This document shows, in pieces, positions 22,534 through 43,247 of a DNA stretch of 45,462 nt. Positions within the stretch are counted from its first letter, which is position 1. Each line of letters opens with the position of its first letter. The stretch spans positions 1 through 45,462 of the forward strand of contig JANNEA010000033.1 of assembly GCA_031388175.1 (NCBI GenBank), in the 5' to 3' direction. The stretch comes from Gammaproteobacteria bacterium. GTDB lineage: Bacteria > Pseudomonadota > Gammaproteobacteria > Natronospirales > JANNEA01. Under the pieces are notes generated by a model. The model was not told the origin of the DNA. It made no database searches and saw nothing but the letters and a program-made list of their open reading frames with translations. The position numbers and the translations under genes are program-made.

Positions 22534-24995
<2,462 letters not shown>

Positions 24996-24999
<4 letters not shown>

Positions 25000-25811: not shown

Positions 25812-25902
25812 GCCCTGGCTAGCGACGGCCGAATCCGGCGAGCCATCCGCCGGGACCCGCCTTAGCAGGCGTATCACTCAACCTGACTCGTTGGATCACG
25901 GC

Positions 25903-28179
25903 ATGCGCTCCTGCACGTTCGCCAAGTTCGCCGCACTCAGCATCGCGCTCGCGCTCGGCGCCCTGCCCGTCGCCGCGCAGCCGACCGATGACCTCCGCCC
26001 GATCCGCACCAAGGTCACGCTGCAGCGCAGCGCGGCGCCGCCGGCCATCGCCGAGGTCGCCAAGGCGATGGAAGAAGGCCGCGACCCGATGCCTGGCATG
26101 GCGCGGGTCGAGGGCTTCATCACCCGCTACCCCTTCGACGGCGTGCCGGGCAGCGAGCGCACCGTCGTCTACCTCGGCTACGACGACAAGAACCTCTACG
26201 CGATCTGGTATGCCTACGACAGCGACCCCACGCTGATCCGCGCGCCGGTCAGGCGCCGCGACAACATCCCCGACGAGGACGACTCGGTCGCGCTGCAGCT
26301 CGACACCTTCCACGACCAGCAGCACCTGCAGGGTTTCCAGACCAGCGTCAATGGTGCGATCAACGACGGCACCTACACCGAAGGCCAGGGCTGGGACATG
26401 TCGAACGACTATGACTGGCACCGCGAGGGGCGCATCACCACGAACGGCTACACGATCGTGATGACGATTCCGTTCAACGCGCTGCGCTTCCCGCCGGGCG
26501 AGCGGCAAGAGTTCGGCTTCCTGATGTTCCGCGGCATGGGCCGGCGCAACGAGGCGGACTTCTTTCCCTGGTACTCGACCACCATCGGCAGCCGCATGCT
26601 GCAGACTGGCACGCTCGAGAACATCGTGATCCCGCCGCACAAGGTGCGCTGGCAGTTCACGCCGTTCGCGACCGCGCAGCAGACCAGCACGCGCGATGTC
26701 AGCGCCGGCGGCCCGTGGATCGACGATGACGGCGTCGAGGTCGGCATGGACGGCAAGCTGGTGTGGGACGACCGGTTGGTCTGGGACTTCACCCTCAACC
26801 CCGACTTCAGCCAGGTCGAATCCGACGAGCCGCAGGTACTCACCAACCAGCGCTTCGAGGTGTTCTTCCCGGAGAAGCGGCCGTTCTTCATCGAGAGCGC
26901 GGGCTACTTCAGCACCCCGCTCGACCTGCTGTTCACGCGCCGCATCGTCGACCCGAGCGCCGGCGTGCGGCTCACCGGCCAGAGCGGCCGCTGGGCGGTG
27001 TCGGGCCTGGCGATCACCGACGACACACCGCCGGAGAACTTCAGCACGCCCGGCGTCGGCGGCGCGATGCTCTGGTACTACGGCATGCGCCGACGCGGCG
27101 AGCAGGACTCCAACATCGGCGGCTCGGTGATGCACCGCGTGGGGCCGACCGAGACTTCCGAACTTGCCTCGCTCGATGGCCGCCAACGCCTCAACGACCA
27201 TTGGATAACGACGTTCCAGATCGCGGGCTCCTGGAACACGCCCGATGCCGTCGCCGCGCCGCGCAGCGATGGCCACGCGTTGTATGCGGCGCTGAGCGGC
27301 AGCGGTCGACTGTGGGCCTTCGACCTCGATGCGCAGGAGATCAGCGACGATTTCCACGCGCCGGTCGGCTTCGTGCCGCGGCTGGGCGTGCGCAAGGTCA
27401 ACCAGTACGCCAACTACCGCTTCGAGCCGAAGCTTACCTGGCTGCTCGCCGCGAGCCCCTACGCGGAGACCCATTGGACCTGGGACGAGGCTGGCCTGCG
27501 CCTCGACCAATGGCTTGAGCCCGGGGTGGTCTTCAAGTTCCCGCACGCGACCACGCTGACGCTTCACTCCATCGGCCTCGATGAGCGGGTCACACCGGCG
27601 GACTTCCCGGTGCTGGCGCAACCCGTTGACTTCGCCCAACAGCGACTCGGCGTCCACTGGCGCAGCGCATTCAGTGCGCTGGTCCTGCTCACCGGTAATG
27701 TCCACTGGGGCGATGCGGTGAACTTCGTGCCGGCGGCTGGCGATCCGCCGGTGGCAGGCCAGGGGCTCGATCTCAACATCGGCGCGACCTTCTTCCCGAC
27801 CAACATGCTCGAGCTCGACGCCTCCTACCTCATGTCGGCGCTCGATCTCGACGATGGCACGCCGGTGTTCGAAACGCGCATCGCGCGGCTCAAGACCAAC
27901 TACCACTTCGACCAGGATTGGCAACTGCGCTTGATCCTCGACTACGGCCAGACGCGCAGCAACGCGCAGGAGTCCTCGCTCACCACCGGCAGTGCGCTCG
28001 GTGGCGACCTGCTGCTGCAATGGCTGCCGACGCCGGGCAACGCGTTCTACTTCGGCTACTCCCAGCGCCAGGACGCGGTGCCGATCGTGCCTGCGCCCGG
28101 CGGGCTGGACGAACCCGGCGAGTTGGTGGCGTCCGGCCGCAGCTTGTTCATCAAGTACTCGCGGCGCTGGGACCGCTAG
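25903..28179 (+). CDS. Secreted/outer-membrane-type protein, CBM9-like N-terminus plus DUF5916-like beta-rich body
   Basis: Signal peptide 'MRSCTFAKFAALSIALALGALPVAAQ'. 'TVVYLGYDDKNLYAIWYAYDSDP..RRDN...DDSVALQLDTFHD' resembles the family-9 CBM/DUF5916 N-terminus. The remainder is long with alternating beta-strand-like sequence. Confidence 0.55.
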   Translation: MRSCTFAKFAALSIALALGALPVAAQPTDDLRPIRTKVTLQRSAAPPAIAEVAKAMEEGRDPMPGMARVEGFITRYPFDGVPGSERTVVYLGYDDKNLYAIWYAYDSDPTLIRAPVRRRDNIPDEDDSVALQLDTFHDQQHLQGFQTSVNGAINDGTYTEGQGWDMSNDYDWHREGRITTNGYTIVMTIPFNALRFPPGERQEFGFLMFRGMGRRNEADFFPWYSTTIGSRMLQTGTLENIVIPPHKVRWQFTPFATAQQTSTRDVSAGGPWIDDDGVEVGMDGKLVWDDRLVWDFTLNPDFSQVESDEPQVLTNQRFEVFFPEKRPFFIESAGYFSTPLDLLFTRRIVDPSAGVRLTGQSGRWAVSGLAITDDTPPENFSTPGVGGAMLWYYGMRRRGEQDSNIGGSVMHRVGPTETSELASLDGRQRLNDHWITTFQIAGSWNTPDAVAAPRSDGHALYAALSGSGRLWAFDLDAQEISDDFHAPVGFVPRLGVRKVNQYANYRFEPKLTWLLAASPYAETHWTWDEAGLRLDQWLEPGVVFKFPHATTLTLHSIGLDERVTPADFPVLAQPVDFAQQRLGVHWRSAFSALVLLTGNVHWGDAVNFVPAAGDPPVAGQGLDLNIGATFFPTNMLELDASYLMSALDLDDGTPVFETRIARLKTNYHFDQDWQLRLILDYGQTRSNAQESSLTTGSALGGDLLLQWLPTPGNAFYFGYSQRQDAVPIVPAPGGLDEPGELVASGRSLFIKYSRRWDR

Positions 28180-28209
28180 CGGCGAGCACAGCTCGTCTAC
28201 ACTGCCACC

Positions 28210-29766
28210 ATGCACGCGACTGTCCGCAACCCCGCTACCGGCGCGCTGATCGGCGAGTTCCCGTTCCTCGACGCCGAGGCACTGCGCGCGCACATCGCTG
28301 CGGCGCGGGCGGCGCAACCGGCGTGGGCTGCGCTGCCGCTCGCCCGGCGCCGCGCCTGCGTCGATGACGCGCGCCAATGGCTGGTCGAGCACGGCGACCA
28401 CCTGGCCGCCACGATCTCGGACTGCGTCGGCAAGACCCAGCTCGAGGCCTACGCAACCGAAGTGATGCCTTCGATCGCCGGCGCCGCCTGGTACGCGGCG
28501 CACGCGCGCGGCGAGCTCGCGCCGAAGCGACTGGCCGCCGGCTCGCTGCTGCTCATCTACAAGCGCGCCACGCTGCAGCGCCTGCCCTGGGGCGTGGTCG
28601 GCATCATCTCGCCGTGGAACTACCCGCTCGGCATCCCGATGCACGAGATCGTGCCGGCGCTGCTCGCCGGCAACAGCGTCGTGTTCAAGACGGCACCTGA
28701 GACGGTGACCGTCGGCACCCTGATCGAGGAGATGTGGGCCGCGGTCGGCCTGCCGGCCGGCGTGTTCCAGCACGCGAACGCTGACGGCCCCGTTGCGGGC
28801 GAGGTGTTCCTGGGCCAGGGCGGCGTGGACAAGCTGTTCTTCACTGGCTCGCCGCGCGTGGGGCGCTGGCTGATGCAGCGCGCCGCCGAACGTCTGGTGC
28901 CGCTGTCGCTCGAGCTCGGCGGCAAGGACGCGATGATCGTCTGTGACGACGCCAACCTCGAGCGCGCCGCGGCCTGCGCGGTCTGGGCAGGCATGTCGAA
29001 CGCCGGGCAGTCCTGTGCCGGCGTCGAGCGGGTCTACGTGGATCGCCGCGTCTACCCCGCGTTCCTCGCGGTGCTCAAGGAAAAGGTCGACGCGCTGCGC
29101 ATCGGCCCCGACCTCGGCGCGCACGCGGTCGACATCGGCGCGCTCTGCACCGCGCGCCAGGCCGACCTGGTGCGCGCCCACCTCGCCGAAGCCATGGCGG
29201 CGGGCGCGACCATCCACGCGCAGGCGACGCTGCCGCGTGATCTTGGCCCGCAGTTCGTCGCGCCGGTGGTGCTGACCGGCGTCGACCATTCGATGCGCGT
29301 GATGCGCGAGGAGACCTTCGGCCCGGTACTCGGCGTGATGCCGGTCGCCGACGACGCCGAGGCGCTCCGGCTCGCGAACGATTCGATCTACGGTCTGTCC
29401 GGTTCGGTCTGGTCACGCGACGGCAGGCGCGCTGCGCGGCTCGCCGCGCAGCTGCGTGCTGGCGCGGTGATGGTGAACGACCACCTGCTTTCGCATGGCC
29501 TGACCGAGACGCCCTGGGGCGGCTTCGGTGATTCCGGCATCGGTCGTGGTCACGGCCGCTTTGCCTTCGACGAGGTCACCGCATCGCGCGTGGTGGTGCG
29601 CGATTGGCTCGACTTCCTGCCGCGCCAACCTTTCTGGCAGCCCTATGGTCGCGCCACCTACGACGCGCTCAGCGGCATGGTCCACGCGCTCTACGGTCGC
29701 GGACTCTGGCGCCGGCTCGCGGGCCTGGTCCGCGGCATCAAATTGTTGCGTGGATTCCTGCGCTGA
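28210..29766 (+). CDS. NAD(P)-dependent aldehyde dehydrogenase
   Basis: 'FKTAPETV', 'FTGSPRVGR', catalytic Glu in 'LELGGKDA' and catalytic Cys in 'NAGQSCAGVERVYV'. 518 aa. Confidence 0.9.
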   Translation: MHATVRNPATGALIGEFPFLDAEALRAHIAAARAAQPAWAALPLARRRACVDDARQWLVEHGDHLAATISDCVGKTQLEAYATEVMPSIAGAAWYAAHARGELAPKRLAAGSLLLIYKRATLQRLPWGVVGIISPWNYPLGIPMHEIVPALLAGNSVVFKTAPETVTVGTLIEEMWAAVGLPAGVFQHANADGPVAGEVFLGQGGVDKLFFTGSPRVGRWLMQRAAERLVPLSLELGGKDAMIVCDDANLERAAACAVWAGMSNAGQSCAGVERVYVDRRVYPAFLAVLKEKVDALRIGPDLGAHAVDIGALCTARQADLVRAHLAEAMAAGATIHAQATLPRDLGPQFVAPVVLTGVDHSMRVMREETFGPVLGVMPVADDAEALRLANDSIYGLSGSVWSRDGRRAARLAAQLRAGAVMVNDHLLSHGLTETPWGGFGDSGIGRGHGRFAFDEVTASRVVVRDWLDFLPRQPFWQPYGRATYDALSGMVHALYGRGLWRRLAGLVRGIKLLRGFLR

Positions 29767-30639: not shown

Positions 30640-30739
30640 GCCACAACCCTAGCAGCGTGCCGGTATGGGCGAGTGGCGACGCGCCGGACCTGGCCGCGCG
30701 CACGGTCGATGGCTCCAGTCATGGGGTAGTCTGCCGGCC

Positions 30740-31174
30740 ATGCGTGCAGCCCTCCTCGTCCTCTGCCTTGCCCTCGGCGCCTGCCCCAGCACGAAACTCG
30801 CCGCTGGTCCCTTGCCGCTCATGCCGCTCGCGCAGGAGAACTACAGCGCCGCCAAGGAACAGCGGCGCGAGGTACTGCGCGACGCCACCACCTGGCAGAA
30901 GCTCTGGAGCGAGCTGCAGCAACAGCGACGGCTCGCACCACCGGTCGACTTCGAGCGGCAGATGGTGCTGTTCGCGGCGCTCGGCGAACGCCGCACCGGC
31001 GGTCATGCGATCGAGATCGTCCGCGCCGAAGTCGTCGAAGGCACGCTCATCGTGCATGTGCGTGAGACCAGTCCGACTCCCGGCGCGCGCGCCACCATGG
31101 CCTTGACCGCGCCACTGCACGCGGTCGCGGTCGCGCGCAGCGATCTGCCGGTACGCTGGTTCACCGTGCCTTGA
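30740..31174 (+). CDS. PrcB-like (protease complex subunit PrcB C-terminal domain) lipoprotein
   Basis: In-frame ATG 'MRAALLVLCLALGAC' (lipobox). 'GERRTGGHAIEIVRAEVVEGTLIVHVRETSPTPGA..TMALTAPLHAVAV' matches the PrcB_C pattern. Confidence 0.65.
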   Translation: MRAALLVLCLALGACPSTKLAAGPLPLMPLAQENYSAAKEQRREVLRDATTWQKLWSELQQQRRLAPPVDFERQMVLFAALGERRTGGHAIEIVRAEVVEGTLIVHVRETSPTPGARATMALTAPLHAVAVARSDLPVRWFTVP

Positions 31175-31769
31175 GTTTGGTCAGCTGGCGGTCGTGCCAG
31201 CGGCCGAGCAGCAGCTGCGACGCGATCGAGCCGCACAGCGCAAGGAACATGTCCCATTGCGTGTCCCAGGGGTCGCCCTGCGTGCCGAGGAAGGCCGCGG
31301 CGCCCTCCTCCGACAGCAGCGCCGTCCACCATTCCAGGAACTCGTAGACCGCGCTGATCGCGAGGCAGACGCAGCAGATCGTGAAGAAGCGCCAGGCGGC
31401 GCCGCGCACCACGTCTAGCCGCAGGAAAATCTCACGCGCGATCAGCGCCGGCACGAAGCCCTGCAGCAGATGGCCCAACCGGTCGTAGTGGTTGCGTGCA
31501 AAGCCGAAGGCGTCGCGCACCCAATCGCCGAGCGGCACCTCGGCGTAGGTATAGTGACCGCCGACCATCAGCACGATGGCGTGCAACGCGATCAAGCAGT
31601 AGACGAGATCGGTCAGAGGGAAGCGACGGTAGGTCCACGCCAACAGCGGCAGCGCGAGCACCACCGGAAACACCTCGAGCATCCAGGTCGGGACGTCCTT
31701 CGGGCCGATGCCGGACCAGACGAAGACTGCAGCGACGAGCGCGAGCAGGGCGAGATGGAGCGTCTTCAT
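31161..31769 (-). CDS. DUF2238 (YjdF-like) inner-membrane protein
   Basis: 'GGHYTYAEVPLGDWVRDAFGFARNHYDRLGHLLQGF' is the hallmark DUF2238 segment. 202 aa with multiple TM helices. It is the last gene of the overlapping operon. Confidence 0.8.
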   Translation of the reverse strand: MKTLHLALLALVAAVFVWSGIGPKDVPTWMLEVFPVVLALPLLAWTYRRFPLTDLVYCLIALHAIVLMVGGHYTYAEVPLGDWVRDAFGFARNHYDRLGHLLQGFVPALIAREIFLRLDVVRGAAWRFFTICCVCLAISAVYEFLEWWTALLSEEGAAAFLGTQGDPWDTQWDMFLALCGSIASQLLLGRWHDRQLTKLKAR

Positions 31770-32140
31770 GTGCTGAGGTGCGCCAGGTCGCCAGCCTGCT
31801 CCCAGTTGCGACCGTCGAAGGGCTTGAGCACCAACCGCTCGACCGTCGCCGAATCAAGGCAGCGCGCGTTGACGCTCCAGCCGTCGGGGTTCGAACGCGG
31901 CCGGTAGAACGCCTTCACGCCGCAGCGGCTGCAGAACAGGTGCTTCGCCACACCAGTGTTAAAGGTGTAGGTGGTCAGCGCGTCTGCGCCGGCCTGCAGC
32001 CGGAAGCGCGATTCGGCGACGATGAGGTGCAGGAACGCGGTCTTGGCGCAGATCGAACAGTTGCACTCGTAGGCCTCGATGACCGCCGGCGCCTCGACTT
32101 CGAAACGCACTGCGCCGCAATGGCAGCTGCCACGATGCAT
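31766..32140 (-). CDS. GFA-family (CENP-V/glutathione-dependent formaldehyde-activating-like) zinc protein
   Basis: Internal ATG 'MHRGSCHCGAVRFEV', 'CNCSICAK', 'HLFCSRCG' and 'VNARCL' give the conserved Cys pattern of the GFA domain. 124 aa. Confidence 0.85.
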   Translation of the reverse strand: MHRGSCHCGAVRFEVEAPAVIEAYECNCSICAKTAFLHLIVAESRFRLQAGADALTTYTFNTGVAKHLFCSRCGVKAFYRPRSNPDGWSVNARCLDSATVERLVLKPFDGRNWEQAGDLAHLST

Positions 32141-32604
32141 CACGGCTTCTCCCGCGCCCGCGTCCAACTGGTGCTGCGCCCGAGCAGCGCGAAGCCGATG
32201 TAGCCGCGGACCCGCAGCGTCTCGCCGTCGAACCACATCTTGCACTTGTAGGTCTTGCCGTTCTCCGGATCGTAGATGGTGCCCTCGCGCCACAGCTCGC
32301 CATCGAAGCGGAAGCCGGCGACGATGCGCAGACCGATGATCCGCTGCGCGCGCTTGTCCTGGTGCGGGTTCTCGCGATCGACCTTGATCCGGCCGGCCAT
32401 GCCCTGCTCATCGTCGGCGGGATACAGCGGCTCCTTCAGCCACACGATCGCGCCTTGATAGCGATCACCGACGCGCTCGATGCGCACCTGGGCGTCAGCC
32501 TTTTCGGTCAACCACAACCCGAGCACGCGATCGGCACCAGCGGTTGCGCCGCTCGCGGCCGCTGCGCCGAAGCACAGCAGCAGCAATAGCGCGAGCCGCG
32601 TCAT
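32140..32604 (-). CDS. DUF2147 periplasmic protein
   Basis: Signal peptide 'MTRLALLLLLCFGAAAASG'. 'GLWLTEKADAQVRI', 'GAIVWL', 'GTIYDPENGKTYKCKMWFDGETLRVRGYIG' match the DUF2147 signature. Confidence 0.85.
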   Translation of the reverse strand: MTRLALLLLLCFGAAAASGATAGADRVLGLWLTEKADAQVRIERVGDRYQGAIVWLKEPLYPADDEQGMAGRIKVDRENPHQDKRAQRIIGLRIVAGFRFDGELWREGTIYDPENGKTYKCKMWFDGETLRVRGYIGFALLGRSTSWTRAREKP

Positions 32605-33641
32605 GCGGCACCTCCGGCGGTCACTGGATGCGCAGCGCGATAGGCGCGCGTGCGCGGCCCCATCACCCGCTCCCACAGCGGTGGCAGCAATGCCAGCAGG
32701 ACCATCCCGGAGTATCCGGTCGGCAGCTGCGGGCTCTGCTCGAGATGCTGCAGTGTCTGATAGGGCCGCGCGTGGTCGATGTGGTGATGCGAATGACGCT
32801 GCAAGTTGAACAGGAACCAGTTGGTCAAGCGATGGCTGGCGTTCCAGGAATGCTGCGCCGTCACCGGCGCCCAGCCGCCGTCGGAGTGACGCGCACGCTC
32901 CAGTCCGTAGTGCTCGACGTAGTTCACGGATTCGAGCAGCGTGATCGCGACCATGGCCTGCAACGCCAGCAGGGCCAGTGCGGCGACGCCGCCAAGCACC
33001 GTGCCTACTGCGAACAAGAACGCAGTGAGCAGTCCGCCCAGCACCACACCGTTGCGCGGCAGGGGCGCGCGCTCGAACGCCCAGGCGCTGCGCAGACCGC
33101 CCGCCACTGTGCGTGGCAGGAAACGCCAGAAGCCCTCACCGAGGCGTGCGCTCGCCGGATCATCCGTCGTCGCCACGCGGCCGTGGTGACCACGGTTGTG
33201 CTCAATCAGGAAATGGCTGTACGCGACGCTGCCGAGCAGCAACCAGGCAAGAGTGCGGCCCGCGCGATCGCGCTTGTGCCCGAGCTCATGCGCCACCGTG
33301 ATGCCGATGCCGCCGGTCGCGATGCCGGTCGCCAGCGCCACGCCGACGAGTTCGACCGGAGCCAGGTTCGGTGCCAGCCAGGCGACGCCCGCGAGCAACG
33401 CGAAGTGCAAGGCGCCATAGGCGAACAGGACCGCGCGGTACCACACGGCCTGCGCCAACATCCGCTCCTGGTCCGCGGTGGGGTTCCATCGATCCGGGCC
33501 GAACGCGTGGTCGAGCACGGGGAGCACGCCGAACACGAACACCGGCGTCAGCAGGTTCCAGGTCCCGCCCGCGAACGCACCGAGGAGCGCCAGGATCGGC
33601 AGCCCGAGCGGCAGCACGAAGCCGGCGCCCCGCAGGTTCAC
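32601..33641 (-). CDS. alkB: AlkB-type integral-membrane di-iron hydroxylase (alkane 1-monooxygenase family)
   Basis: GTG start. His boxes 'HELGHK', 'EHNRGHH' and 'LQRHSHHH', plus the AlkB-specific 'NYVEHYGL' motif. 346 aa. Confidence 0.85.
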   Translation of the reverse strand: MNLRGAGFVLPLGLPILALLGAFAGGTWNLLTPVFVFGVLPVLDHAFGPDRWNPTADQERMLAQAVWYRAVLFAYGALHFALLAGVAWLAPNLAPVELVGVALATGIATGGIGITVAHELGHKRDRAGRTLAWLLLGSVAYSHFLIEHNRGHHGRVATTDDPASARLGEGFWRFLPRTVAGGLRSAWAFERAPLPRNGVVLGGLLTAFLFAVGTVLGGVAALALLALQAMVAITLLESVNYVEHYGLERARHSDGGWAPVTAQHSWNASHRLTNWFLFNLQRHSHHHIDHARPYQTLQHLEQSPQLPTGYSGMVLLALLPPLWERVMGPRTRAYRAAHPVTAGGAA

Positions 33642-34654
33642 CCGCGAATGCCCCGCGTGCGCTTCGGGTCATTGATCTCGACCACCATCGCCAAGTGCTT
33701 GCCGTCGCGGCTCACGGCCAGGCGCTTGATGTCACCCGGCAGGTCACTGAGCTCGGCGAGCGCGGTCCACCCGCTGCCCGGTTTGCCGTCCCAGCGCAGC
33801 AGCCACTTGCCCTTCGCCATCAGCAGCGTGCCATCCGGCAGCCAGCAGAAGTCCTCGCTGCGCGCGCCATCTGCTTCATCTGGCGGACCAGGTGGCGTCG
33901 CGATCAGCGCGTTCGGTTTGAGGTCGCCTGGTGCGAGCGTGGCCACCGTCCAGGCCTTGGCGTTGGACTTGTCGACGAAGGTCACCCGACCGTCAGGCGC
34001 GCGACTGAGCGAACGGCCGATGTCGTAGGCCAGCGGCGTGACCTTGCCGCTCGCGGAATCCACGATCACCAGTCGGTTCGGCAGCTTGGCGTCGCCGCCA
34101 CCGACGATGAACGCGGCGAAGCGCGTCGCGTCGATCCAGGCGTGGTAGCCGACGCGGTTCAGACTGGCGACGACCGCACCCTGCGCAACACCGTCCATGC
34201 CATAGCGGTACAGGTGCTGCGATTCGGTGTAGGCCTCACCTTCGGCCTTGGGCGACTCGACCCGCACCGCAGAGAAGCCGCCAGCAGCAAGCAGCGTCGG
34301 CGAGAACTCGGCCTCGGGCGTGTTGGTGACCTGCACGCGCGCGCCGCTGGCCAGCTCGTAGCGCCAGACATCGGTCTGGTCACCGTCGCCGTCGGCGACG
34401 TAGAGCACCGCGCTGCCGTCGAGCGTGAACGCCGGCTGGTTGTCGTACCCATCGCGGTCGGTGATGTTCACCGGCGGCGCAACCTTGCCGACATCGAGAT
34501 AAAGGTCGGCGACGAACACATCCGTGTCCGGCGGCGCTGACGTTGCAGGCGCAACCGCGGCCGGCACCGCCGGGCCGGCCGACGCAATCCCGGCGCAGGT
34601 GGTGATCAGCAGCAGCAAGCTTCGGCGCAACATGGAAGACCTCATGACAGTCAC
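33638..34654 (-). CDS. Periplasmic beta-propeller protein (TolB/PD40-like repeats)
   Basis: Signal peptide 'MLRRSLLLLITTCAGIASA'. Repeated 'D.QP.F..DG..L.Y' / 'EFSPTL' / 'SRDGKHLA' strands are typical of WD40-like beta-propeller (PD40) repeats. Starts at a GTG that overlaps the upstream stop, or at an ATG 9 nt further in. Confidence 0.6.
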   Translation of the reverse strand: MTVMRSSMLRRSLLLLITTCAGIASAGPAVPAAVAPATSAPPDTDVFVADLYLDVGKVAPPVNITDRDGYDNQPAFTLDGSAVLYVADGDGDQTDVWRYELASGARVQVTNTPEAEFSPTLLAAGGFSAVRVESPKAEGEAYTESQHLYRYGMDGVAQGAVVASLNRVGYHAWIDATRFAAFIVGGGDAKLPNRLVIVDSASGKVTPLAYDIGRSLSRAPDGRVTFVDKSNAKAWTVATLAPGDLKPNALIATPPGPPDEADGARSEDFCWLPDGTLLMAKGKWLLRWDGKPGSGWTALAELSDLPGDIKRLAVSRDGKHLAMVVEINDPKRTRGIRG

Positions 34655-35262
34655 TTGACGCGGCGCACCGCGATTGAACGCTTGGTCTCGACCAAACGCA
34701 GTTTGTAGCCGATCAGGCCCCGTTCGATCGTGACCTCCGGATCATTGGCCTTGTGGCGATAGACGCCTGGCGTCGATTGACGCCAGACCTGACCGTTGTC
34801 GAGCGTGAAGCGCGTCTTCCCGTCCCAGCCCGTGAACTCGCCCAGCACACGGGCGCGCAGCTCTTTCAGATCACCGTCGACCGCGTCCTGCTCCAGGCCG
34901 AACGCCGCCGTGGTGCCGATCGTCACGGGGGCGCGGGGCGCAGCCGCGGGCACGGACGCAGATGCCGCCGTCGCCGCAGATGCCACCGGCACCGCAGGTA
35001 CGATAACGGCCTGCACCGTCACGCCATCGGAGCTGAACTCGACCGTCGGCGACATCACCGGCACTGGCCTGCCGTCGATATGGCGCTCGATCCAGCGCGC
35101 GAGCTCCGCGCGCTCCGCGACGCTGAGCTTCTGCAGGCCCATGGCCTGCGCCTGATCTGCCCCGACCCTCTGCTCGAGTGGATCAGCCGCACTCAGCGGT
35201 GACAGTGCCAGCAGCAATACCAAAGGCACGCCACGCGCGCCGATCTCGATGGACCTTTTCAT
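34651..35262 (-). CDS. Secreted hypothetical protein (203 aa), no family recognised
   Basis: Signal peptide 'GARGVPLVLLLALSPLSAA'. Helical N-domain, A/P/V-rich linker, then a C-terminal beta-rich module 'GWDGKTRFTLDNGQVWRQ...IERGLIGYKLRLV'. Overlaps both neighbouring genes by 4 nt. Confidence 0.6.
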   Translation of the reverse strand: MKRSIEIGARGVPLVLLLALSPLSAADPLEQRVGADQAQAMGLQKLSVAERAELARWIERHIDGRPVPVMSPTVEFSSDGVTVQAVIVPAVPVASAATAASASVPAAAPRAPVTIGTTAAFGLEQDAVDGDLKELRARVLGEFTGWDGKTRFTLDNGQVWRQSTPGVYRHKANDPEVTIERGLIGYKLRLVETKRSIAVRRVK

Positions 35263-36224
35263 CCGTGGTGCTCCTGCGTTGTGATCCAGGGCAATGCGTC
35301 GAGGTCGACGTTGCCGCCGGAGATGATGATGCCGACGCGTCGACCGGTGGCCGAAATGCGGCCCTCGAACAGGGCCGCCAAGGGGACCGCTGCCGACGGC
35401 TCAACCACCAGCTTGGCGTGCTCCCACAGGAAGCGCATCGCACGGATGATCGCGGCGTCGTCGACCGTGACGATGTCGTCGAGCAAGGCCTTGAGGATCG
35501 GCAGCGTGTTGTGGCCCACCGTGGCGCGCAGGCCATCCGCGATCGTGTTCGGCTGTGCCACCGGCGTGACCGCGCCAGCGCGAAGCGAACGCAGCGCATC
35601 ATCGGCCCCCGCGGGCTCCACGCCGTAGAGCCCGATCCGCGGTCGCAGCTGGCGCGCCACCACGGCGCAGCCGCTCATCAGGCCACCGCCACCGATCGGC
35701 GCCAGCAGCAGATCGAGCTCGGGGACCTCATGCATCAGTTCGAGCGCTGCGGTGCCCTGCCCGGCCATCACCCGATGGTCTTCGAAGGGGTGCACGACCG
35801 CGGCGCCAGTGCGCGCCACCAGCGCGGCGAGCGCGGCCTCGCGGGCCGCCATCGTCGGCTCGCAGAGGATGATCTCCGCACCGTGGCCCGCCACCGCGGC
35901 CTGCTTGAACTTCGACACGTCATCCGGCATCACCACGTGGGCGCGGGCCCCGCGCTCGCGCGCCGCGCGTGCCAGCGCCGTAGCGTGGTTGCCCGAGGAA
36001 TGGGTCGCGACGCCGCGGGCCAACTCGTCGCTGCTGAGCTGGAGCACCGCGTTGCAGGCGCCGCGGTACTTGAACGCACCGATGCGCTGCAGGTTCTCGC
36101 ATTTGAGGAACACGCGGCCGCCGATGCGGCGGTCGAGCTCATCGTTGGTCAACACTGGGGTACGCAGCACCAGCGGCGCGAGCCGCGCAGCCGCGTCCTG
36201 CACGTCCCTATAGGTCAATCGCAT
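35259..36224 (-). CDS. PLP-dependent threonine/serine dehydratase (serine-racemase/TdcB-like)
   Basis: Internal ATG 'MRLTYRDVQDAAARL'. PLP-lysine motif 'ENLQRIGAFKYRGACNAV', 'SSGNHA' and the glycine loop 'PIGGGGLMSG'. 321 aa. Confidence 0.85.
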   Translation of the reverse strand: MRLTYRDVQDAAARLAPLVLRTPVLTNDELDRRIGGRVFLKCENLQRIGAFKYRGACNAVLQLSSDELARGVATHSSGNHATALARAARERGARAHVVMPDDVSKFKQAAVAGHGAEIILCEPTMAAREAALAALVARTGAAVVHPFEDHRVMAGQGTAALELMHEVPELDLLLAPIGGGGLMSGCAVVARQLRPRIGLYGVEPAGADDALRSLRAGAVTPVAQPNTIADGLRATVGHNTLPILKALLDDIVTVDDAAIIRAMRFLWEHAKLVVEPSAAVPLAALFEGRISATGRRVGIIISGGNVDLDALPWITTQEHHG

Positions 36225-36244
36225 GGCCGCGAGGATACTAGAAT

Positions 36245-37156
36245 GTGCGCCCCCGCCTGCGCCCCATCGGAGTTCCCGCATTGACCAAGGACGAACCAGC
36301 ACGCGGCGTGCTCTACGTGCTCGGCGCGGCGGCCGCATTCTCGACCATGAGCGCCCTGATCAAGTCCGCATCGGGCGATCTGTCGACCGAGATGCTGGTA
36401 TTCCTGCGCAACGGGTTCTCGCTGCTGTTCTTGCTGCCGTTCCTGGCGCGGCTGCGCATCGAGGGCTTGCGGACCAAGGTCTTCCACCTGCACTTGCTGC
36501 GCGCGACCTTCGGTGTCACCGGCATCTACCTGTTCGTCTACGCGATCACCCACCTGCCGCTGGCCGAGGCCGTGCTGCTCAACCACACTTCGGCACTGTT
36601 CGTGCCGTTCATCGCATTCCTCTGGCTCGGCGAACGCCTGACCCGGTTGATCGGCACCGCGCTGATCGTCGGCTTCATCGGCATCGCCTTCATCCTCAAG
36701 CCCGGCGGCGACCTGCAGTCGTTCGGCACGCTGGTCGGGCTCGCATCGGGGCTCACCACAGCGTTCGCCGTGGTCACGATCCGGCGCAACGCCCAGACCG
36801 AGCCCTACCAACGCATCGTGTTCTATTTCTTCACCCTGGCCACGCTGGTCTCGGCGGTACCCGCCGCGCTCAACTGGCAGTCACCGTCGCTGCGCCAGTG
36901 GTTGATGCTGGGTGCAGCGGGCTTGTTCGCCACGCTCGGGCAGCTCGGCGCGACCAAGGCCTATTCGCTGGCGCCGGCGACCCGCATCGGGCCCTACACC
37001 TACGTCTCGGTGGTGTTCGCCGCGGCCTGGGGTTGGGCGTTGTGGGGCGAGACGCCGGACCTGCTGTCGATCATGGGCGCGGTGCTGATCGCGATCGGTG
37101 GTGCGCTGGCGCTGCCGCGCAGCGTCATCGCCCCGCGCACGCCACCGGCGACCTAG
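36245..37156 (+). CDS. EamA/DMT-family transporter
   Basis: 10-TM protein with two EamA-like halves ('VLYVLGAAAAFSTMSALIK...', 'LGAAGLFATLGQLGATKAYSLA'). The start is uncertain: GTG at 36245 or TTG at 36281. A TAGAAT -10-like hexamer at 36239-36244 favours the later start. Confidence 0.8.
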   Translation: MRPRLRPIGVPALTKDEPARGVLYVLGAAAAFSTMSALIKSASGDLSTEMLVFLRNGFSLLFLLPFLARLRIEGLRTKVFHLHLLRATFGVTGIYLFVYAITHLPLAEAVLLNHTSALFVPFIAFLWLGERLTRLIGTALIVGFIGIAFILKPGGDLQSFGTLVGLASGLTTAFAVVTIRRNAQTEPYQRIVFYFFTLATLVSAVPAALNWQSPSLRQWLMLGAAGLFATLGQLGATKAYSLAPATRIGPYTYVSVVFAAAWGWALWGETPDLLSIMGAVLIAIGGALALPRSVIAPRTPPAT

Positions 37157-40012: not shown

Positions 40013-40369
40013 TCAGCCCGGCGGCCAATCCAGGCGCCGCCCGCCGAGCAGATGCAGGTGCACGTGGAACACGCTCTGGCCTGCGCCGGCGCCGCAGTTG
40101 ATCGCGACTCGATAACCCGACTCGACCAGGCCAGCGTCCGCTGCGACCTGCTTCGCCGCCAACAGCAGCTCACCCATCAGCGCGGCATCGCCCGCGACCA
40201 GGTCGTTGAGCGTCGCGACGTGGCGCTTGGGGATGATCAGCACGTGGGTCGGCGCCTGCGGGTTGATGTCCTTGAACGCGAGCACCGATGCTGTCTCGAG
40301 CACCACGGCCGGCTTTATCGCGCCGCTGGCGAACTTGCAGAACAGGCAGTCGTCGACAGGCTTGGTCAT
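40013..40369 (-). CDS. HIT-family (HinT-like) nucleotide hydrolase
   Basis: 'CLFCKF' and the histidine triad 'HVHLHLLGG'. 118 aa. Confidence 0.9.
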
Positions 40370-40965
40370 TGCTTAACCTCGCTGCGGCCGGTGAACGCGT
40401 GCGCGATCGTGCCACCGTCCACGAACTCGAGCTCGCCACCCACCGGCACGCCGTGGGCGATGCGCGACGGCGTGACGCCGTGCTCGCGCGCGTGCGTGGC
40501 GAGGTAATGCGCGGTGGCTTCACCCTCGACCGTGGGATTGGTGGCGATGATCAGCTCGTGCACCTCGCCGCGCGCAAGCCGCCGCTCCAGCGCGTCGAGG
40601 CCGAGCTCGACCGGCCCGATGCCGTCGAGCGGCGACAGATGGCCGGTCAGCACGAAGTAGAGGCCGCGGTAGTTGGTGGCCTGCTCGACCGCCACCACGT
40701 CGGCCGGCGATTCGACCGCGCACAGCAGACCGTGGTCGCGGCCGCTGGCGGCACAGATGCCGCAGAGCTCGCCATCGGAGAACATCCGGCACTCGCGGCA
40801 ACGCTGCACCAAGTCGTGCGCGCCGGTGAGCGCGGCTGCCAGGTGCTGCGCGCCCTGCGGGTCGCGATCGAGCAGGTGGAAGGCCATGCGTTGCGCCGAC
40901 TTTCGCCCCACGCCCGGCAGGCAGCGCAGCGCCTCGATCAGGGTCTCGACGTGCTTCGAGAACAT
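40366..40965 (-). CDS. recR: Recombination protein RecR
   Basis: '[24 protein letters not shown]' (HhH), C4 zinc finger '[16 protein letters not shown]' and a Toprim region. 199 aa. Confidence 0.95.
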
Positions 40966-42539
40966 CAGTCGTTCGGACGCACGCTGTCGGGGAGCAGTTG
41001 CGCGCCGAAGGCGTCGCCCATCGCACGCACCACCGGGTCCTGACTGAGCTGGTCGCGGGCCTGGGCGGTGCGCTCGGCCACGCCGCGCGCCGCGGCGGCC
41101 GCGGGCGTCTCGCCGCCCACGGTGCCGAGCTCGATGCGCAGCACGACTGCCTGGCCGAACACGCGACCGAGCGCGTCCTGGATGCGTTCGACCGAACGGT
41201 CGGAGAGCAACTGACGGTGCGCCGGCGCGAGGGTCAGGTCCACGCGTGCACCGTCGCGGCTACGCAGCGCGCAGTTCACCGCGAGCTCGCGGACCAGCCC
41301 CTTCAGCGCCATGCGCTCCACCAGGGTGACCCATTCATCGGGCGAAACGATCGGTGCGGACTTGGAAGAAGGCGCAGGCGTGGCCGCAGTCGCGTTTGCG
41401 CCGCCGCCCGCGCGCAGCGTCGCGCCGCTCGTCGCATCGGCGCCCCCTTGGGGGACGGCGCCCGGCCGGAACGCCAGCATGCGCAGCAGCGCCATCTCGA
41501 AACCGGACCGCGGGTCCGCGGCGAGCGGCAAGTCGCGCCGGCTGGTGATCGCGATCTGGTAGAGCAGCTGGACCTCGGCGGCGTCGAGCTGGGCGGCGAT
41601 CGGCGCGAGCGCAGCGCGGTCATCCCACTCGTTCGCCGCCGCCGGCACCGCCTGCATGATCGCCAGGCGCTGCAGCGTGGTCGCCAACTCACCCAGCACG
41701 CCCTCGTAATCGGGCGCCAGCTCGTCCAGCGCCGCGACGGTGGCCAGCAGGCCCGCCGCATCGGCTGCTGCGAGCAGACGCAGCAGTTCATGGATCCGCT
41801 TGCGGTCGACGGTGCCGAGCATCGCGCGGACCTCGACACCGGTGAGCGTGCCGCCGCCGTGGGCGATGGCCTGGTCGAGCAGCGACAACGCATCGCGCAT
41901 CGAACCATCGGCGGCGCGCGCGATCGCGTCGAGCGCGTCGGCGTCGCTGGTCACCTGCTCTGCCACCAGCACCTTCTTGAGGTAGGCCATGATCGACGGC
42001 TGTGGCAGGCGCTTCAGCCCGAACTGCAGGCAGCGCGACAGCACCGTGACCGGCAGCTTCTGCGGGTCGGTGGTCGCGAGCAGGAACTTGGCGTGCTCAG
42101 GCGGCTCCTCGAGCGTCTTGAGCAGCGCGTTGAACGCGTTCTTCGACAGCATGTGCACCTCGTCGATGAGGTACACCTTGTAGGCGCCGCGCGCCGGCCG
42201 GTACTGCGCGTTCTCGATTAGCTCGCGCACATCGTCCACGCCGGTGTTGCTGGCGGCATCAATCTCGAGCAGGTCGACGAAGCGGCCCTCGTCGATCTCG
42301 GTGCAGGCCGAGCAGACGCCGCAGGGGTCAGAGGTGATGCCCTTCTCGCAGTTCAGGCTCTTGGCCAGGATCCGCGCGATCGTGGTCTTGCCCACGCCGC
42401 GGGTGCCGGTGAAGAGGAACGCGTGGTGCAAGCGCTTGCTGTCGAGCGCGTTGATCAAGGCCCGCTGCACATGTTCCTGCCCGACGAGTTCGGCGAAACG
42501 GCGCGGGCGCCACTTGCGGGCGAGTGCTTGGTAGGTCAT
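40965..42539 (-). CDS. dnaX: DNA polymerase III subunit tau/gamma
   Basis: In-frame ATG '[24 protein letters not shown]'. Walker A 'GTRGVGKTT', zinc module '[10 protein letters not shown]', 'YLIDEVHML' and '[16 protein letters not shown]'. 524 aa. Confidence 0.95.
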
Positions 42540-42557
42540 CGGGGCCTCAGCATGAGC

Positions 42558-42662
<105 letters not shown>

Positions 42663-42687
42663 CGATGCGGATCACCATTGCATTGAG

Positions 42688-42779
42688 TGGCGGAGAGGGA
42701 GGGATTCGAACCCTCGAAACGCTTTTGGGCGTTTACACACTTTCCAGGCGTGCGCCTTCAACCGCTCGGCCACCTCTCC
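42688..42779 (-). tRNA. tRNA-Ser (anticodon GGA)
   Basis: The minus strand reads GGAGAGGUGGCCGAGCGGUUGAAGGCGCACGCCUGGAAAGUGUGUAAACGCCCAAAAGCGUUUCGAGGGUUCGAAUCCCUCCCUCUCCGCCA. It has a 7-bp acceptor stem, anticodon loop CUGGAAA, long variable arm, GGUUCGAAUCC T-arm and encoded CCA. Confidence 0.95.
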
Positions 42780-42790
42780 GGAGGGCGCGC

Positions 42791-42818
42791 AGTCTACCCG
42801 AGGGCTGCGGCGCGGCAA
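42791..42818 (-). promoter_or_regulatory. Candidate sigma-70 promoter for tRNA-Ser (and possibly ffs/dnaX)
   Basis: On the minus strand: TTGCCG (42818-42813), 16-nt spacer, TAGACT (42796-42791), then the GC-rich discriminator GCGCGCC. The tRNA 5' end lies 11 nt downstream of the -10 element. Confidence 0.5.
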
Positions 42819-42862
42819 AGGAAACGACGCCCGACGCGTGGGGCTCGACCATCGTCGGGACC

Positions 42863-43234: not shown

Positions 43235-43247
43235 GCAGGTGCTCCGT

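What the first reader, a model, noticed from the sequence alone, without database searches (positions are those of the whole stretch)
31161..36224. Seven-gene operon in which every junction is an overlapping stop/start, built around an AlkB-type hydroxylase
On the minus strand the gene order is:
1. PLP threonine/serine dehydratase (36224-35259)
2. orphan secreted protein (35262-34651)
3. periplasmic beta-propeller (34654-33638)
4. AlkB-family di-iron hydroxylase (33641-32601)
5. DUF2147 periplasmic protein (32604-32140)
6. GFA-family zinc protein (32140-31766)
7. DUF2238 membrane protein (31769-31161)

All six junctions overlap:
- ATGA at 35259-35262, 32601-32604 and 31766-31769;
- GTGA at 34651-34654 and 33638-33641;
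- TGATG sharing base 32140.

Such unbroken coupling argues for stoichiometric co-production. The combination is a cytoplasmic PLP enzyme, three exported proteins, two membrane proteins and a thiol-dependent aldehyde-handling-type enzyme. It does not correspond to any alkane (alkBFGHJKL-type) or lipid-modification cluster I know. It could be an envelope-spanning oxidation or lipid-remodelling system.
Basis: partly seen in the sequence, partly recalled or inferred. Interest (0 to 1): 0.65.

Follow-up and report, generated by a model that had tools for sequence, protein, structure and literature searches.

The report
Variant AlkB hydroxylase operon with lipocalin partner
Seven tightly packed genes in an uncultured freshwater-sediment bacterium surround an unusual alkane-hydroxylase-type membrane enzyme, but only the enzyme and two or three small partner genes stay together in relatives, so the conserved unit is a small hydroxylase module of unknown substrate, not a seven-part machine.

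Summary
Five of the six junctions are true stop/start overlaps. The g2/g3 "GTGA" junction is better read as a 17-nt spacer, with an ATG at 34633 preceded by GAGG.

Overlaps are common in this compact 68% GC contig and also join unrelated genes such as M48/RsgA and DnaX/RecR. They therefore say little about stoichiometry.

All seven genes co-occur only in close relatives (AlkB at least 64% identical). In more distant relatives only subsets remain.

The conserved core is an AlkB clade that carries HSHHH instead of the canonical HSDHH in His-box 3. It always lies near orn. In 18 of 18 informative loci it is followed directly by a lipocalin-like DUF2147 protein or a GFA zinc protein, and in 16 of 18 the stop and start overlap. 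A TolB-like propeller often precedes it.

None of 80 canonical AlkB loci has these partners in that arrangement. No rubredoxin motif lies in any of the 14 variant loci scanned.

My best reading is terminal hydroxylation of a long-chain hydrophobic substrate, with a periplasmic carrier. The substrate and the electron donor are unknown. I rate it a new variant of a known kind, of moderate interest.

The parts
35259..36224 (-). g1: fold-type II PLP enzyme of the serine racemase / threo-3-hydroxyaspartate dehydratase type, 321 aa. It is a peripheral member. It is present upstream in 8 of the variant-AlkB loci but is separable from AlkB there.
   Evidence: Pfam PALP E=3.8e-72. NCBIfam BhcB scores 400 bits against a cutoff of 550, and 3-hydroxyaspartate ammonia-lyase 371 against 452, so both fall below the equivalog cutoffs. 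The best PDB match is serine racemase 6LUT, E=1.9e-90. The exact 321-aa product is in the public gene calls. In L092 an opposite-strand RND pump pair separates it from AlkB, and it is absent in the Steroidobacteraceae-type loci.
34651..35262 (-). g2: small secreted protein, 203 aa. It has a signal peptide, a short helical motif, an Ala/Pro linker and a conserved C-terminal beta-barrel of about 75 aa. Function unknown. It is not an orphan, and it is a peripheral member.
   Evidence: No Pfam or NCBIfam family. 158 homologues with E<=1e-3. The conserved motif is GEFTGWDGKT..NGQVW. The AF2 model has mean pLDDT 79, with the C-terminal domain above 90. No significant PDB fold match; best E=0.23. It is present in the window, L002, L001 and L083 only. 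Homologue P0189 lies in an unrelated context.
33638..34633 (-). g3: periplasmic TolB-like (PD40) beta-propeller, 331 aa from ATG 34633. It is a recurrent upstream partner of AlkB.
   Evidence: Pfam PD40 25.6 bits against a cutoff of 20.9. TolB 7MX5 E=0.0017. The 331-aa product is in the public gene calls; the 338-aa and 335-aa versions are not. Homologues lie directly upstream of AlkB, within a few nt, in L002, L001, L083, L088, L092 and L106. None is found in 80 canonical AlkB loci.
32601..33641 (-). g4: AlkB-family integral-membrane di-iron hydroxylase, 346 aa. It belongs to a variant clade with His-box 3 LQRHSHHH instead of LQRHSDHH. This is the core gene.
   Evidence: PDB 8F6T (FtAlkB-AlkG) E=5.5e-82. 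AF2 pLDDT 94.5 and pTM 0.92. Foldseek TM 0.91, rmsd 2.0 A to 8F6T. Motifs HELGHK, EHNRGHH, NYVEHYG and QRHSHHH are present. The nine His and one Glu that are the iron ligands in FtAlkB (PMC10113152) are all conserved. About six TM segments. The variant motif forms a nearly pure clade: 65 of 68 such sequences fall in a clade of 67. It is rare among 50%-identity cluster representatives, 8 of 150.
32140..32604 (-). g5: periplasmic DUF2147 protein, 154 aa, with a signal peptide. It belongs to the lipocalin-like HP1028 family. It is a core partner whose start overlaps the AlkB stop (ATGA).
   Evidence: Pfam DUF2147 E=3.5e-34. A profile of 7 orthologues hits HP1028 (4INN) at E=1.5e-7. A preprint describes HP1028 as lipocalin-like and proposes DUF2147 ('HpnT') as a periplasmic hopanoid shuttle (10.1101/2025.07.29.667474). 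It lies directly downstream of AlkB in 9 of 18 informative variant loci, each with a candidate start overlapping the AlkB stop (ATGA or GTGA in eight, TAATG in L107). It is found in 0 of 80 canonical AlkB loci.
31766..32140 (-). g6: cytoplasmic GFA/CENP-V-type zinc protein, 124 aa, with seven conserved Cys ligands. It is a recurrent partner of the variant AlkB, but it belongs to a very widespread and promiscuous orthologue group.
   Evidence: Pfam GFA E=9.3e-17. PDB 3FAC E=4e-20, with CHCG, CxCSxC and CxxC aligned. It is present after AlkB or after DUF2147 in 14 of 18 variant loci. More than 8000 homologues, many at 70% identity or more. Orthologues at 74-75% identity sit in unrelated operons, also with 4-bp overlaps. 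pI is 8.2.
31161..31769 (-). g7: DUF2238 (YjdF-like; 'Wok' family of the Lipocone superfamily) integral membrane protein, 202 aa. It is a lineage-specific last gene.
   Evidence: Pfam DUF2238 E=7.8e-61. NCBIfam PRK09867 scores 241 bits against a cutoff of 353. Several hydrophobic segments. It is found next to the cluster only in the window, L002 and L001. A preprint predicts it to be a lipid head-group enzyme (10.1101/2025.01.14.632903). No PDB relative. It is convergent with, and overlaps by 14 nt, the PrcB_C gene at 30665-31174 (+).

Best explanation
The locus is a compact, co-directional and probably co-transcribed string of seven genes. It is an evolutionary mosaic rather than one seven-part machine.

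The conserved nucleus is a distinct clade of AlkB-family membrane di-iron hydroxylases. In this clade His-box 3 reads HSHHH instead of HSDHH. The gene sits at a fixed chromosomal place near orn in a group of Gammaproteobacteria. Its stop codon overlaps the start of a small partner gene. That partner is either a periplasmic lipocalin-like DUF2147 protein or a cytoplasmic GFA zinc protein, and often both follow in that order. A periplasmic TolB-like propeller often precedes AlkB. The PLP enzyme, the small secreted protein g2 and the DUF2238 membrane protein were added in this lineage.

Inferred mechanism:
- AlkB hydroxylates the terminal methyl group of a long-chain hydrophobic molecule inside the inner membrane. 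The gating residue is a small Val, which suggests chains longer than C12.
- Electrons come from a donor that is not encoded locally.
- The DUF2147 lipocalin carries the hydrophobic substrate or product across the periplasm.
- GFA plausibly handles a thiol-reactive aldehyde side-product.

Shown here: gene content, junctions, the AlkB fold and ligands, the clade and its conserved partners. Inferred: the substrate class, the carrier role, the GFA role, and co-transcription of all seven genes.
For: Gene content and junctions.

AlkB identity:
- 8F6T E=5.5e-82.
- Model pLDDT 94.5 with TM 0.91 to 8F6T.
- All FtAlkB iron ligands are conserved (one search read against PMC10113152).
- The residue equivalent to Ile54 is Val36.

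The clade:
- QRHSHHH in 65 of the 120 best hits.
- It is a near-pure clade in an NJ tree.
- It is rare among cluster representatives.

Partners:
- 18 of 18 variant loci with enough downstream DNA have DUF2147 or GFA directly after AlkB.
- 16 of 18 have an overlapping stop/start.
- In 80 canonical AlkB loci with +/-10 kb flanks, an iterative profile search finds 0 DUF2147, 0 propeller, 0 DUF2238, 0 g2, and only 2 GFA, both on the other strand.

DUF2147 relates to the lipocalin-like HP1028. Papers propose periplasmic hydrophobic-carrier roles for such proteins.

A rubredoxin motif is present in 0 of 14 variant loci against 22 of 80 canonical loci, Fisher p=0.035.

Metatranscriptome contigs from the same sediment study cover the locus. 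Single pieces span the g3/g4, g4/g5 and g5/g6 junctions.

The G+C content matches the flanks.
Against: - No function has been tested for any member of this clade, so substrate, carrier role and GFA role are all inference.
- The whole region (dnaX-recR-rsgA-orn ... ppsA) is syntenic across the same relatives. Vertical inheritance alone could therefore explain part of the co-occurrence.
- GFA belongs to a huge, slowly evolving orthologue group that sits in many unrelated operons. Its adjacency may be incidental.
- The RNA evidence is weak. Depth is low and the contigs have no strand information. DNA carry-over is possible. No piece spans g6/g7. No listed piece spans g1/g2 or g2/g3, and 65 further pieces were not shown.
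- Two of the six Arg residues that dock rubredoxin in FtAlkB are lost here (to Gly and Pro). The electron route is open.
Confidence: 0.5

Rival explanations
1. All seven products form one integrated envelope-spanning oxidation or lipid-remodelling machine, and the unbroken translational coupling enforces its stoichiometry.
For: - Five of six junctions overlap and there are no terminators.
- The products are spread over cytoplasm, membrane and periplasm.
- All seven are kept in L002 and L001.
- A preprint predicts DUF2238 to be a lipid head-group enzyme.
Against: - The full set is limited to close relatives, and L001 has an inserted GNAT gene.
- At about 50% AlkB identity PALP, g2, the propeller, GFA and DUF2238 are each dispensable.
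- Overlaps join unrelated genes elsewhere in the window and around GFA orthologues.
- A g2 homologue lies in an unrelated context.
Confidence: 0.1
2. An ordinary alkane-degradation alkB gene whose neighbours are functionally unrelated. The string would be a by-product of genome compaction plus inherited synteny. Rubredoxin and its reductase would be encoded elsewhere, as for alkB1 and alkB2 in Pseudomonas aeruginosa.
For: - 42-50% identity to bona fide AlkBs, with complete ligands and the AlkB fold.
- Many canonical loci also lack a local rubredoxin (58 of 80).
- The wider region is syntenic.
- An SDR and an aldehyde dehydrogenase lie 1.4-6 kb away and recur near the cluster in L001 and L085.
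Against: - The AlkB stop overlaps the partner's start in 16 of 18 loci across lineages, even though the neighbourhood is otherwise reshuffled (PMT_2, GNAT, Nramp and CN_hydrolase come and go).
- The partners are absent from 80 canonical loci.
- The Asp-to-His change marks a separate clade.
- The fixed housekeeping location, with no regulator or catabolic island features, is unlike typical alk clusters.
- The aldehyde dehydrogenase is generic; its best NCBIfam match is succinic-semialdehyde dehydrogenase, below cutoff.
Confidence: 0.25
3. The GFA zinc protein, which has a CxC...CxxC Cys4 site, replaces rubredoxin as the direct electron donor to the variant AlkB.
For: - No rubredoxin motif in 14 variant loci.
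- GFA is present in 14 of 18 loci and overlaps AlkB directly in the Steroidobacteraceae-type loci.
- A Cys4 metal site is present.
Against: - GFA is basic (pI 8.2, 14 K+R against 12 D+E). The AlkB docking face is positive, and rubredoxin docks through acidic residues (PMC10113152).
- Four variant loci lack GFA altogether (L083, L085, L088, L107).
- The same GFA orthologue group occurs widely without AlkB.
- The family binds zinc in solved structures (established knowledge; not tested here).
Confidence: 0.03

Closest known systems
AlkB alkane 1-monooxygenase (Fontimonas thermophila FtAlkB, PDB 8F6T/8SBB; Pseudomonas putida GPo1 AlkB)
   Same: Same fold: TM 0.91, rmsd 2.0 A, 42% identity. About six TM helices. 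It has the HELGHK, EHNRGHH and NYVEHYG motifs and all nine His plus one Glu iron ligands. Four of the six rubredoxin-docking Arg residues are kept.
   Different: His-box 3 is HSHHH rather than HSDHH, and this marks a separate clade. The protein is about 346 aa and has no fused or adjacent rubredoxin. Two docking Arg residues are lost. Its conserved partners are DUF2147, GFA and a propeller, instead of AlkF/G/H/J/K/L.
alkBFGHJKL/alkST alkane-degradation operon (OCT plasmid type)
   Same: Both contain an AlkB hydroxylase as the first oxidative step. An aldehyde dehydrogenase and an SDR lie nearby, on the other strand.
   Different: The string has no rubredoxin, rubredoxin reductase, GMC alcohol dehydrogenase, acyl-CoA synthetase, AlkL or AlkS. 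It sits at a chromosomal, housekeeping-like location next to orn.
DUF2147 / HP1028 lipocalin-like periplasmic proteins ('HpnT' candidate hopanoid shuttle; compare the Blc lipocalin proposed for alkane uptake in Alcanivorax)
   Same: Pfam DUF2147 match, signal peptide, and a profile match to HP1028. Papers propose a role as a periplasmic carrier of hydrophobic molecules.
   Different: Here the gene is coupled to an AlkB hydroxylase, not to shc/hpnN hopanoid genes. None of the 13 papers in the held library that mention DUF2147 (12 were listed) is about AlkB, judging from their titles and abstract openings.
GFA / CENP-V family (Paracoccus Gfa; PDB 3FAC)
   Same: Pfam GFA match, with the conserved Cys ligands of two zinc sites.
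   Different: There is no formaldehyde-oxidation genes context. It belongs to a widespread orthologue group of about 125-135 aa found in many unrelated operons.
DUF2238 / E. coli YjdF-like, 'Wok' family of the Lipocone superfamily
   Same: Strong Pfam match and multiple TM segments.
   Different: The contexts published for the Wok family are phosphoesterases, cardiolipin-type reactions and carotenoid genes. AlkB is not among them. Here the link is confined to one shallow lineage.

Membership tests
AlkB (membrane di-iron alkane 1-monooxygenase) | Four conserved motifs (HELxHK, EHxxGHH, NYxEHYG, LQRHSDHH) that supply nine His and one Glu iron ligands | tested here: met
   HELGHK, EHNRGHH, NYVEHYG and LQRHSHHH are present. 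All ligand positions of FtAlkB align (ligand list from PMC10113152). The non-ligand Asp of box 3 is His.
AlkB (membrane di-iron alkane 1-monooxygenase) | Six-TM AlkB fold | tested here: met
   AF2 pLDDT 94.5. Foldseek against 8F6T gives E=1.2e-24, TM 0.91, rmsd 2.0 A. The hydropathy segments are consistent with six TM helices.
AlkB (membrane di-iron alkane 1-monooxygenase) | Rubredoxin (and reductase) as electron donor, fused, adjacent or elsewhere in the genome | tested here: inconclusive
   No rubredoxin-motif ORF in the 45-kb window or in 13 related loci. The rest of the genome is not available. 58 of 80 canonical loci also lack one locally.
AlkB (membrane di-iron alkane 1-monooxygenase) | Terminal hydroxylation of n-alkanes | not testable with these tools
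   This needs expression and an assay. Only the small gating residue (Val36, equivalent to FtAlkB Ile54 and GPo1 Trp55) hints at long chains.
alkBFGHJKL-type alkane operon | alkB together with rubredoxin, aldehyde dehydrogenase, GMC alcohol dehydrogenase, acyl-CoA synthetase and the AlkL porin in one cluster | tested here: not met
   None of these is among the seven genes. The window holds only an SDR and a generic aldehyde dehydrogenase, on the other strand 1.4-6 kb away.
Operon (single transcription unit of seven genes) | Same strand, short or overlapping junctions, no internal terminator | tested here: met
   The gaps are -4, +17, -4, -4, -1 and -4 nt. The only terminator-like hits lie inside g2 coding sequence and are at chance level.
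Operon (single transcription unit of seven genes) | One RNA spanning all junctions | tested here: inconclusive
   Metatranscriptome contig pieces span g3/g4, g4/g5 and g5/g6. None spans g6/g7. No listed piece spans g1/g2 or g2/g3. Depth is low, there is no strand information, and DNA carry-over is possible.
Conserved seven-gene system | The seven genes co-occur outside this genome across divergent relatives | tested here: not met
   All seven occur only in L002 (92% AlkB identity) and L001 (64%, with an extra GNAT gene). At 43-54% identity only subsets are present.
DUF2147 / HP1028 lipocalin-like family | Match to the family profile and to the solved member HP1028, plus export signal | tested here: met
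   Pfam 118 bits against a cutoff of 27. The profile matches 4INN at E=1.5e-7. An N-terminal hydrophobic signal is present. Ligand binding was not tested.
GFA / CENP-V zinc protein family | Family profile match and the conserved Cys ligands of the two zinc sites | tested here: met
   Pfam 61.6 bits against a cutoff of 24.3. The alignment to 3FAC keeps CHCG, CxCSxC and CxxC. Metal content and activity were not tested.
DUF2238 (YjdF-like; Lipocone 'Wok') | Family profile match and integral membrane topology | tested here: met
   Pfam 204.5 bits against a cutoff of 26.4. Hydrophobic segments are present. The NCBIfam PRK09867 equivalog falls below its cutoff, 241 against 353. The active-site residues proposed in the preprint were not checked.
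Threo-3-hydroxyaspartate / beta-hydroxyaspartate dehydratase (BhcB) equivalogs | Score above NCBIfam equivalog cutoff | tested here: not met
   400 against 550 bits and 371 against 452 bits. It is therefore only a member of the broader serine racemase/dehydratase group.

The most novel reading that the evidence does not exclude
The HSHHH clade of AlkB is not an alkane-catabolic enzyme. It would be a housekeeping hydroxylase of an endogenous envelope lipid, such as a long-chain, isoprenoid or hopanoid-like lipid tail. Its substrate or product would be handed to a dedicated periplasmic lipocalin (DUF2147) and a propeller. That would make it a previously undescribed lipid modification and trafficking pathway with a non-local or non-rubredoxin electron supply.

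The varying neighbours are all envelope-lipid enzymes, which fits this reading:
- DUF2238/Wok in this lineage
- a PMT_2 GT-C glycosyltransferase and Lnt in Steroidobacteraceae
- a GNAT-CN_hydrolase fusion in Natronospira-type loci.
Probability: 0.2. Interest if true: 0.7.

Novelty: new variant of a known kind. Interest (0 to 1): 0.45.

Why it matters
AlkB is the main enzyme by which bacteria start to oxidise medium- and long-chain alkanes, and alkB is widely used as a marker gene for hydrocarbon degradation.

A separate AlkB clade has an altered His box, no local rubredoxin, a fixed housekeeping position, and conserved translational coupling to a periplasmic lipocalin and a GFA zinc protein. 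This suggests that part of what is annotated 'alkane 1-monooxygenase' in Gammaproteobacteria from sediments and soils may do something else, or may use a different way of delivering substrate.

The finding also gives DUF2147, a family without a tested function, a concrete and testable partner.

For the scan as a whole there is a caution: in compact high-GC genomes, runs of overlapping junctions are weak evidence of a functional unit.

Tried and rejected
I used these as a negative control instead.
2. The sigma-70 promoter and terminator scan found no promoter. The two terminator-like hits lie inside g2 and are at chance level, so the scan is uninformative.
3. g2 has a confident C-terminal beta-barrel model but no significant PDB match, so no function can be assigned.
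4. phmmer of g5 alone against the PDB found nothing. Only a 7-sequence profile reached HP1028.
5. Laying the RNA contigs on the g6/g7 junction found no spanning piece.
6. I considered GFA as a rubredoxin surrogate and rated it unlikely on charge and distribution.
7. I considered the nearby SDR plus aldehyde dehydrogenase as AlkJ/AlkH analogues. The aldehyde dehydrogenase is generic and below every equivalog cutoff. The pair follows ppsA as part of the general synteny. I left this as weak context only.
8. I considered the high GFA identity (58-72%) in distant loci as a sign of co-evolution with AlkB. I rejected this because the whole GFA orthologue group is that conserved everywhere.
9. Rfam found only SRP RNA and a tRNA, and nothing in the operon.
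10. The two structure papers say nothing about the role of the Asp in HSDHH.

Full report
**Source and context.** The window is a complete 45,462-bp contig of an uncultured bacterium from freshwater sediment. G+C is 62-73% throughout, and the finding's region does not differ from its flanks. The flanking genes are housekeeping genes:
- On one side: dnaX, recR, a HIT protein, rsgA, an M48 protease and orn, then a divergent EamA transporter.
- On the other side: a convergent PrcB_C gene, DUF4440, an aldehyde dehydrogenase, DUF5916, an SDR, ppsA and ppsR.

| Gene | Family | Evidence |
|---|---|---|
| g1 | PALP | E=3.8e-72 |
| g2 | no family | none |
| g3 | PD40 propeller | weak, 25.6 bits |
| g4 | FA_desaturase/AlkB | E=2e-26 |
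| g5 | DUF2147 | E=3.5e-34 |
| g6 | GFA | E=9.3e-17 |
| g7 | DUF2238 | E=7.8e-61 |

Reading the sequence confirms ATGA at g1/g2, g4/g5 and g6/g7, TGATG at g5/g6, and GTGA at g3/g4. Independent public gene calls on the same DNA give exactly these starts.

The sixth junction fails. The public call starts g3 at ATG 34633, not GTG 34654. That ATG has a GAGG 7 nt upstream, and the 92%-identical relative shows the same 17-nt gap. So five of six junctions overlap.

Overlap is common in this contig and joins unrelated genes: M48/RsgA (ATGA), DnaX/RecR (TGATG), and a Rieske oxygenase with its neighbour (TGATG). With a background rate of 0.35-0.5, at least five of six overlaps has a probability of 0.02-0.11 (rough). 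The string is tight but not exceptional, and overlap alone does not show stoichiometric coupling.

**The proteins.**
- **g4** is a genuine AlkB.
  - It matches FtAlkB-AlkG (8F6T) at E=5.5e-82.
  - The AF2 model has pLDDT 94.5 and superposes on 8F6T with TM 0.91 and rmsd 2.0 A.
  - All nine His and the Glu that bind the two irons in FtAlkB (PMC10113152) are conserved.
  - The chain-length gate (FtAlkB Ile54, GPo1 Trp55) is Val36, which is small.
  - Four of the six Arg residues that dock rubredoxin are kept, and two are lost.
- **g5** has a signal peptide. As a 7-sequence profile it matches the lipocalin-like HP1028 (4INN, E=1.5e-7). A preprint proposes DUF2147 proteins as periplasmic hopanoid shuttles. 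A review cites a lipocalin proposed for alkane uptake in Alcanivorax.
- **g6** keeps the Cys ligands of GFA-type zinc proteins.
- **g7** belongs to DUF2238, the 'Wok' family of predicted lipid head-group enzymes.
- **g1** is closest to serine racemases and falls below the cutoffs of all NCBIfam equivalogs.
- **g2** is not an orphan. It has about 158 homologues and a confident C-terminal beta-barrel, but no PDB fold match.
- **g3** is weakly TolB-like.

**A distinct AlkB clade.** The best hits all carry QRHSHHH where canonical AlkBs have QRHS(A)DHH; the count is 65 of the 120 best hits. In an NJ tree, 65 of 68 sequences with this change fall in one clade of 67. Among the 150 best representatives of 50%-identity clusters, only 8 carry His at this position and 137 carry Asp. 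The changed residue lies between two iron ligands. Its role is not discussed in the two structure papers.

**Conservation of the neighbourhood.** I collected loci through gene look-ups and through a metagenome scan for the clade-specific peptide FNLQRHSHHH. I mapped the seven proteins onto them with tblastn.
- All seven genes occur only in L002 (92% AlkB identity) and L001 (64%). L001 has a GNAT gene inserted between g2 and g3.
- At 43-54% identity the arrangements are:
  - PALP-g2-Nramp-propeller-AlkB-DUF2147 (L083)
  - PALP-propeller-AlkB-DUF2147-GNAT/CN_hydrolase (L088)
  - PALP-AlkB-DUF2147-GNAT/CN_hydrolase (L085 from Natronospira bacteriovora, and L107)
  - GNAT-propeller-AlkB-DUF2147-GFA (L092, L106)
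  - orn-PMT_2-AlkB-GFA(-Lnt) (L090, L099-L101, L111 and others; Steroidobacteraceae type)
- Of 18 distinct loci with enough downstream DNA, all have DUF2147 (9) or GFA (9) directly after AlkB, and GFA is present in 14.
- In 16 of the 18 a start codon overlaps the AlkB stop.
- DUF2238 occurs in 3 loci, g2 in 4, the propeller in 7 and PALP in 8.
- Nearly all loci lie beside orn, and the wider region is syntenic.

As a control I used 80 loci of canonical AlkBs from diverse genomes (39-50% identity, +/-10 kb flanks). An iterative profile search finds no DUF2147, propeller, DUF2238 or g2 in them, and only two GFA genes, both on the other strand. A rubredoxin motif is present in 22 of these 80 loci and in none of 14 variant loci (p=0.035).

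**Caveats on the partners.** GFA belongs to a very large, slowly evolving orthologue group, with more than 8000 hits and many at 70% identity or more. Members at 74-75% identity sit in unrelated operons: OsmC-GFA-flavoprotein, and a 2-oxoacid dehydrogenase operon. They again have 4-bp overlaps with their neighbours. GFA is therefore a frequent passenger, and its high identity is not a sign of co-evolution with AlkB. A g2 homologue elsewhere has an unrelated context. Because the whole region is syntenic, inheritance explains part of the co-occurrence. What argues for function is that the AlkB-partner junction stays overlapped while the other neighbours are reshuffled.

**Transcription.** No consensus promoter or meaningful terminator was found. 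Four metatranscriptome runs from the same sediment study hold contigs from related strains across the locus at low depth. Single pieces span g3/g4, g4/g5 and g5/g6. No piece spans g6/g7, and no listed piece spans g1/g2 or g2/g3. This fits co-transcription of the core but does not prove it.

**Interpretation.** The data support a small conserved module: (propeller)-AlkB(HSHHH)-DUF2147 and/or GFA. PALP, g2 and DUF2238 joined it in this lineage.

The most likely mechanism is terminal hydroxylation of a long-chain hydrophobic substrate in the inner membrane, with the lipocalin-like protein ferrying substrate or product through the periplasm. GFA may deal with a reactive aldehyde. Electrons must come from a donor encoded elsewhere.

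Whether the substrate is an exogenous alkane or an endogenous envelope lipid cannot be decided here. The fixed housekeeping position and the envelope-lipid enzymes that come and go beside AlkB (DUF2238, PMT_2, Lnt, GNAT-CN_hydrolase) lean towards an endogenous lipid. The 42-50% identity to proven alkane hydroxylases leans towards alkanes.

GFA as a rubredoxin substitute is unlikely. It is basic (pI 8.2), whereas the docking face of AlkB is positive, and four variant loci lack it.

**Novelty.** None of the papers in the held library that mention DUF2147 or DUF2238 is about AlkB, judging from their titles and abstract openings, and the 'alkB + lipocalin' search found only the Alcanivorax Blc proposal. 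The AlkB family, the lipocalin-like fold and GFA are all known. The clade and its conserved coupling appear undescribed. I rate this a new variant of a known kind, interest 0.45.

Noticed in passing
window 40366-42596 (-): ybaB is missing between dnaX and recR. The dnaX stop and recR start share a TGATG, and tblastn with a relative's YbaB finds nothing in the window. Relatives L001, L083, L085 and L090 all have dnaX-ybaB-recR.
   Followed up: partly
window 42570-42667 (-) and 42688-42779 (-): SRP RNA (68 bits) and tRNA-Ser(GGA). The longest dnaX ORF (to 42596) and a 216-aa ORF without a Pfam family (42665-43315, +) overlap them. The dnaX start must therefore lie further downstream, and the 216-aa ORF is probably spurious.
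   Followed up: partly
window 36224-36245: The start codons of the PLP enzyme (minus strand) and the divergent EamA transporter (plus strand) are only 20 bp apart by the public gene calls. Each promoter must therefore lie inside the other gene, or one of the starts is miscalled. EamA-PALP is a conserved divergent pair in L001 and L083.
   Followed up: no
window 24813-29766 (+): SDR, DUF5916 (762 aa) and an aldehyde dehydrogenase lie in a row. In relatives L001 and L085 the SDR and the aldehyde dehydrogenase are directly adjacent after ppsA, so the large DUF5916 gene is an insertion here. L092 has a 789-aa gene and a GMC oxidoreductase at the equivalent place.
   Followed up: partly
L114 6001-6384; L115 6001-6818: GFA orthologues 74-75% identical to g6 sit inside unrelated operons. 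One is OsmC-GFA-FAD protein-glyoxalase. The other is a tandem GFA pair between the E1 and E2 genes of a 2-oxoacid dehydrogenase operon, followed by glutathione peroxidase. Each has 4-bp overlaps with its neighbours. This hints at a general thiol or redox-stress role.
   Followed up: partly
L090 6185-11266 and L099-L101, L111: In Steroidobacteraceae-type relatives the variant AlkB lies between a PMT_2 (GT-C, ArnT-like) glycosyltransferase and GFA. In L090 a true Lnt (LNT_N + CN_hydrolase) follows. All of these are envelope-lipid enzymes.
   Followed up: partly
L002 4626-5951: In the 92%-identical relative an OprD-family porin gene follows DUF2238 directly, sharing one base with it. The window has the convergent PrcB_C gene at that place instead.
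   Followed up: no
window 15448-17678 (-): A Rieske/Ring_hydroxyl_A oxygenase is closest to the glycine-betaine monooxygenase GbcA but falls far below its cutoff. It is joined by a TGATG overlap to a 358-aa protein with no Pfam family. The same pair appears in L083 and L090.
   Followed up: no
window 2737-4545 (-): A 602-aa protein whose only hit is a C-terminal NOV_C (NO VEIN C-terminal) domain lies between an amino-acid permease and a tail-specific protease.
   Followed up: no
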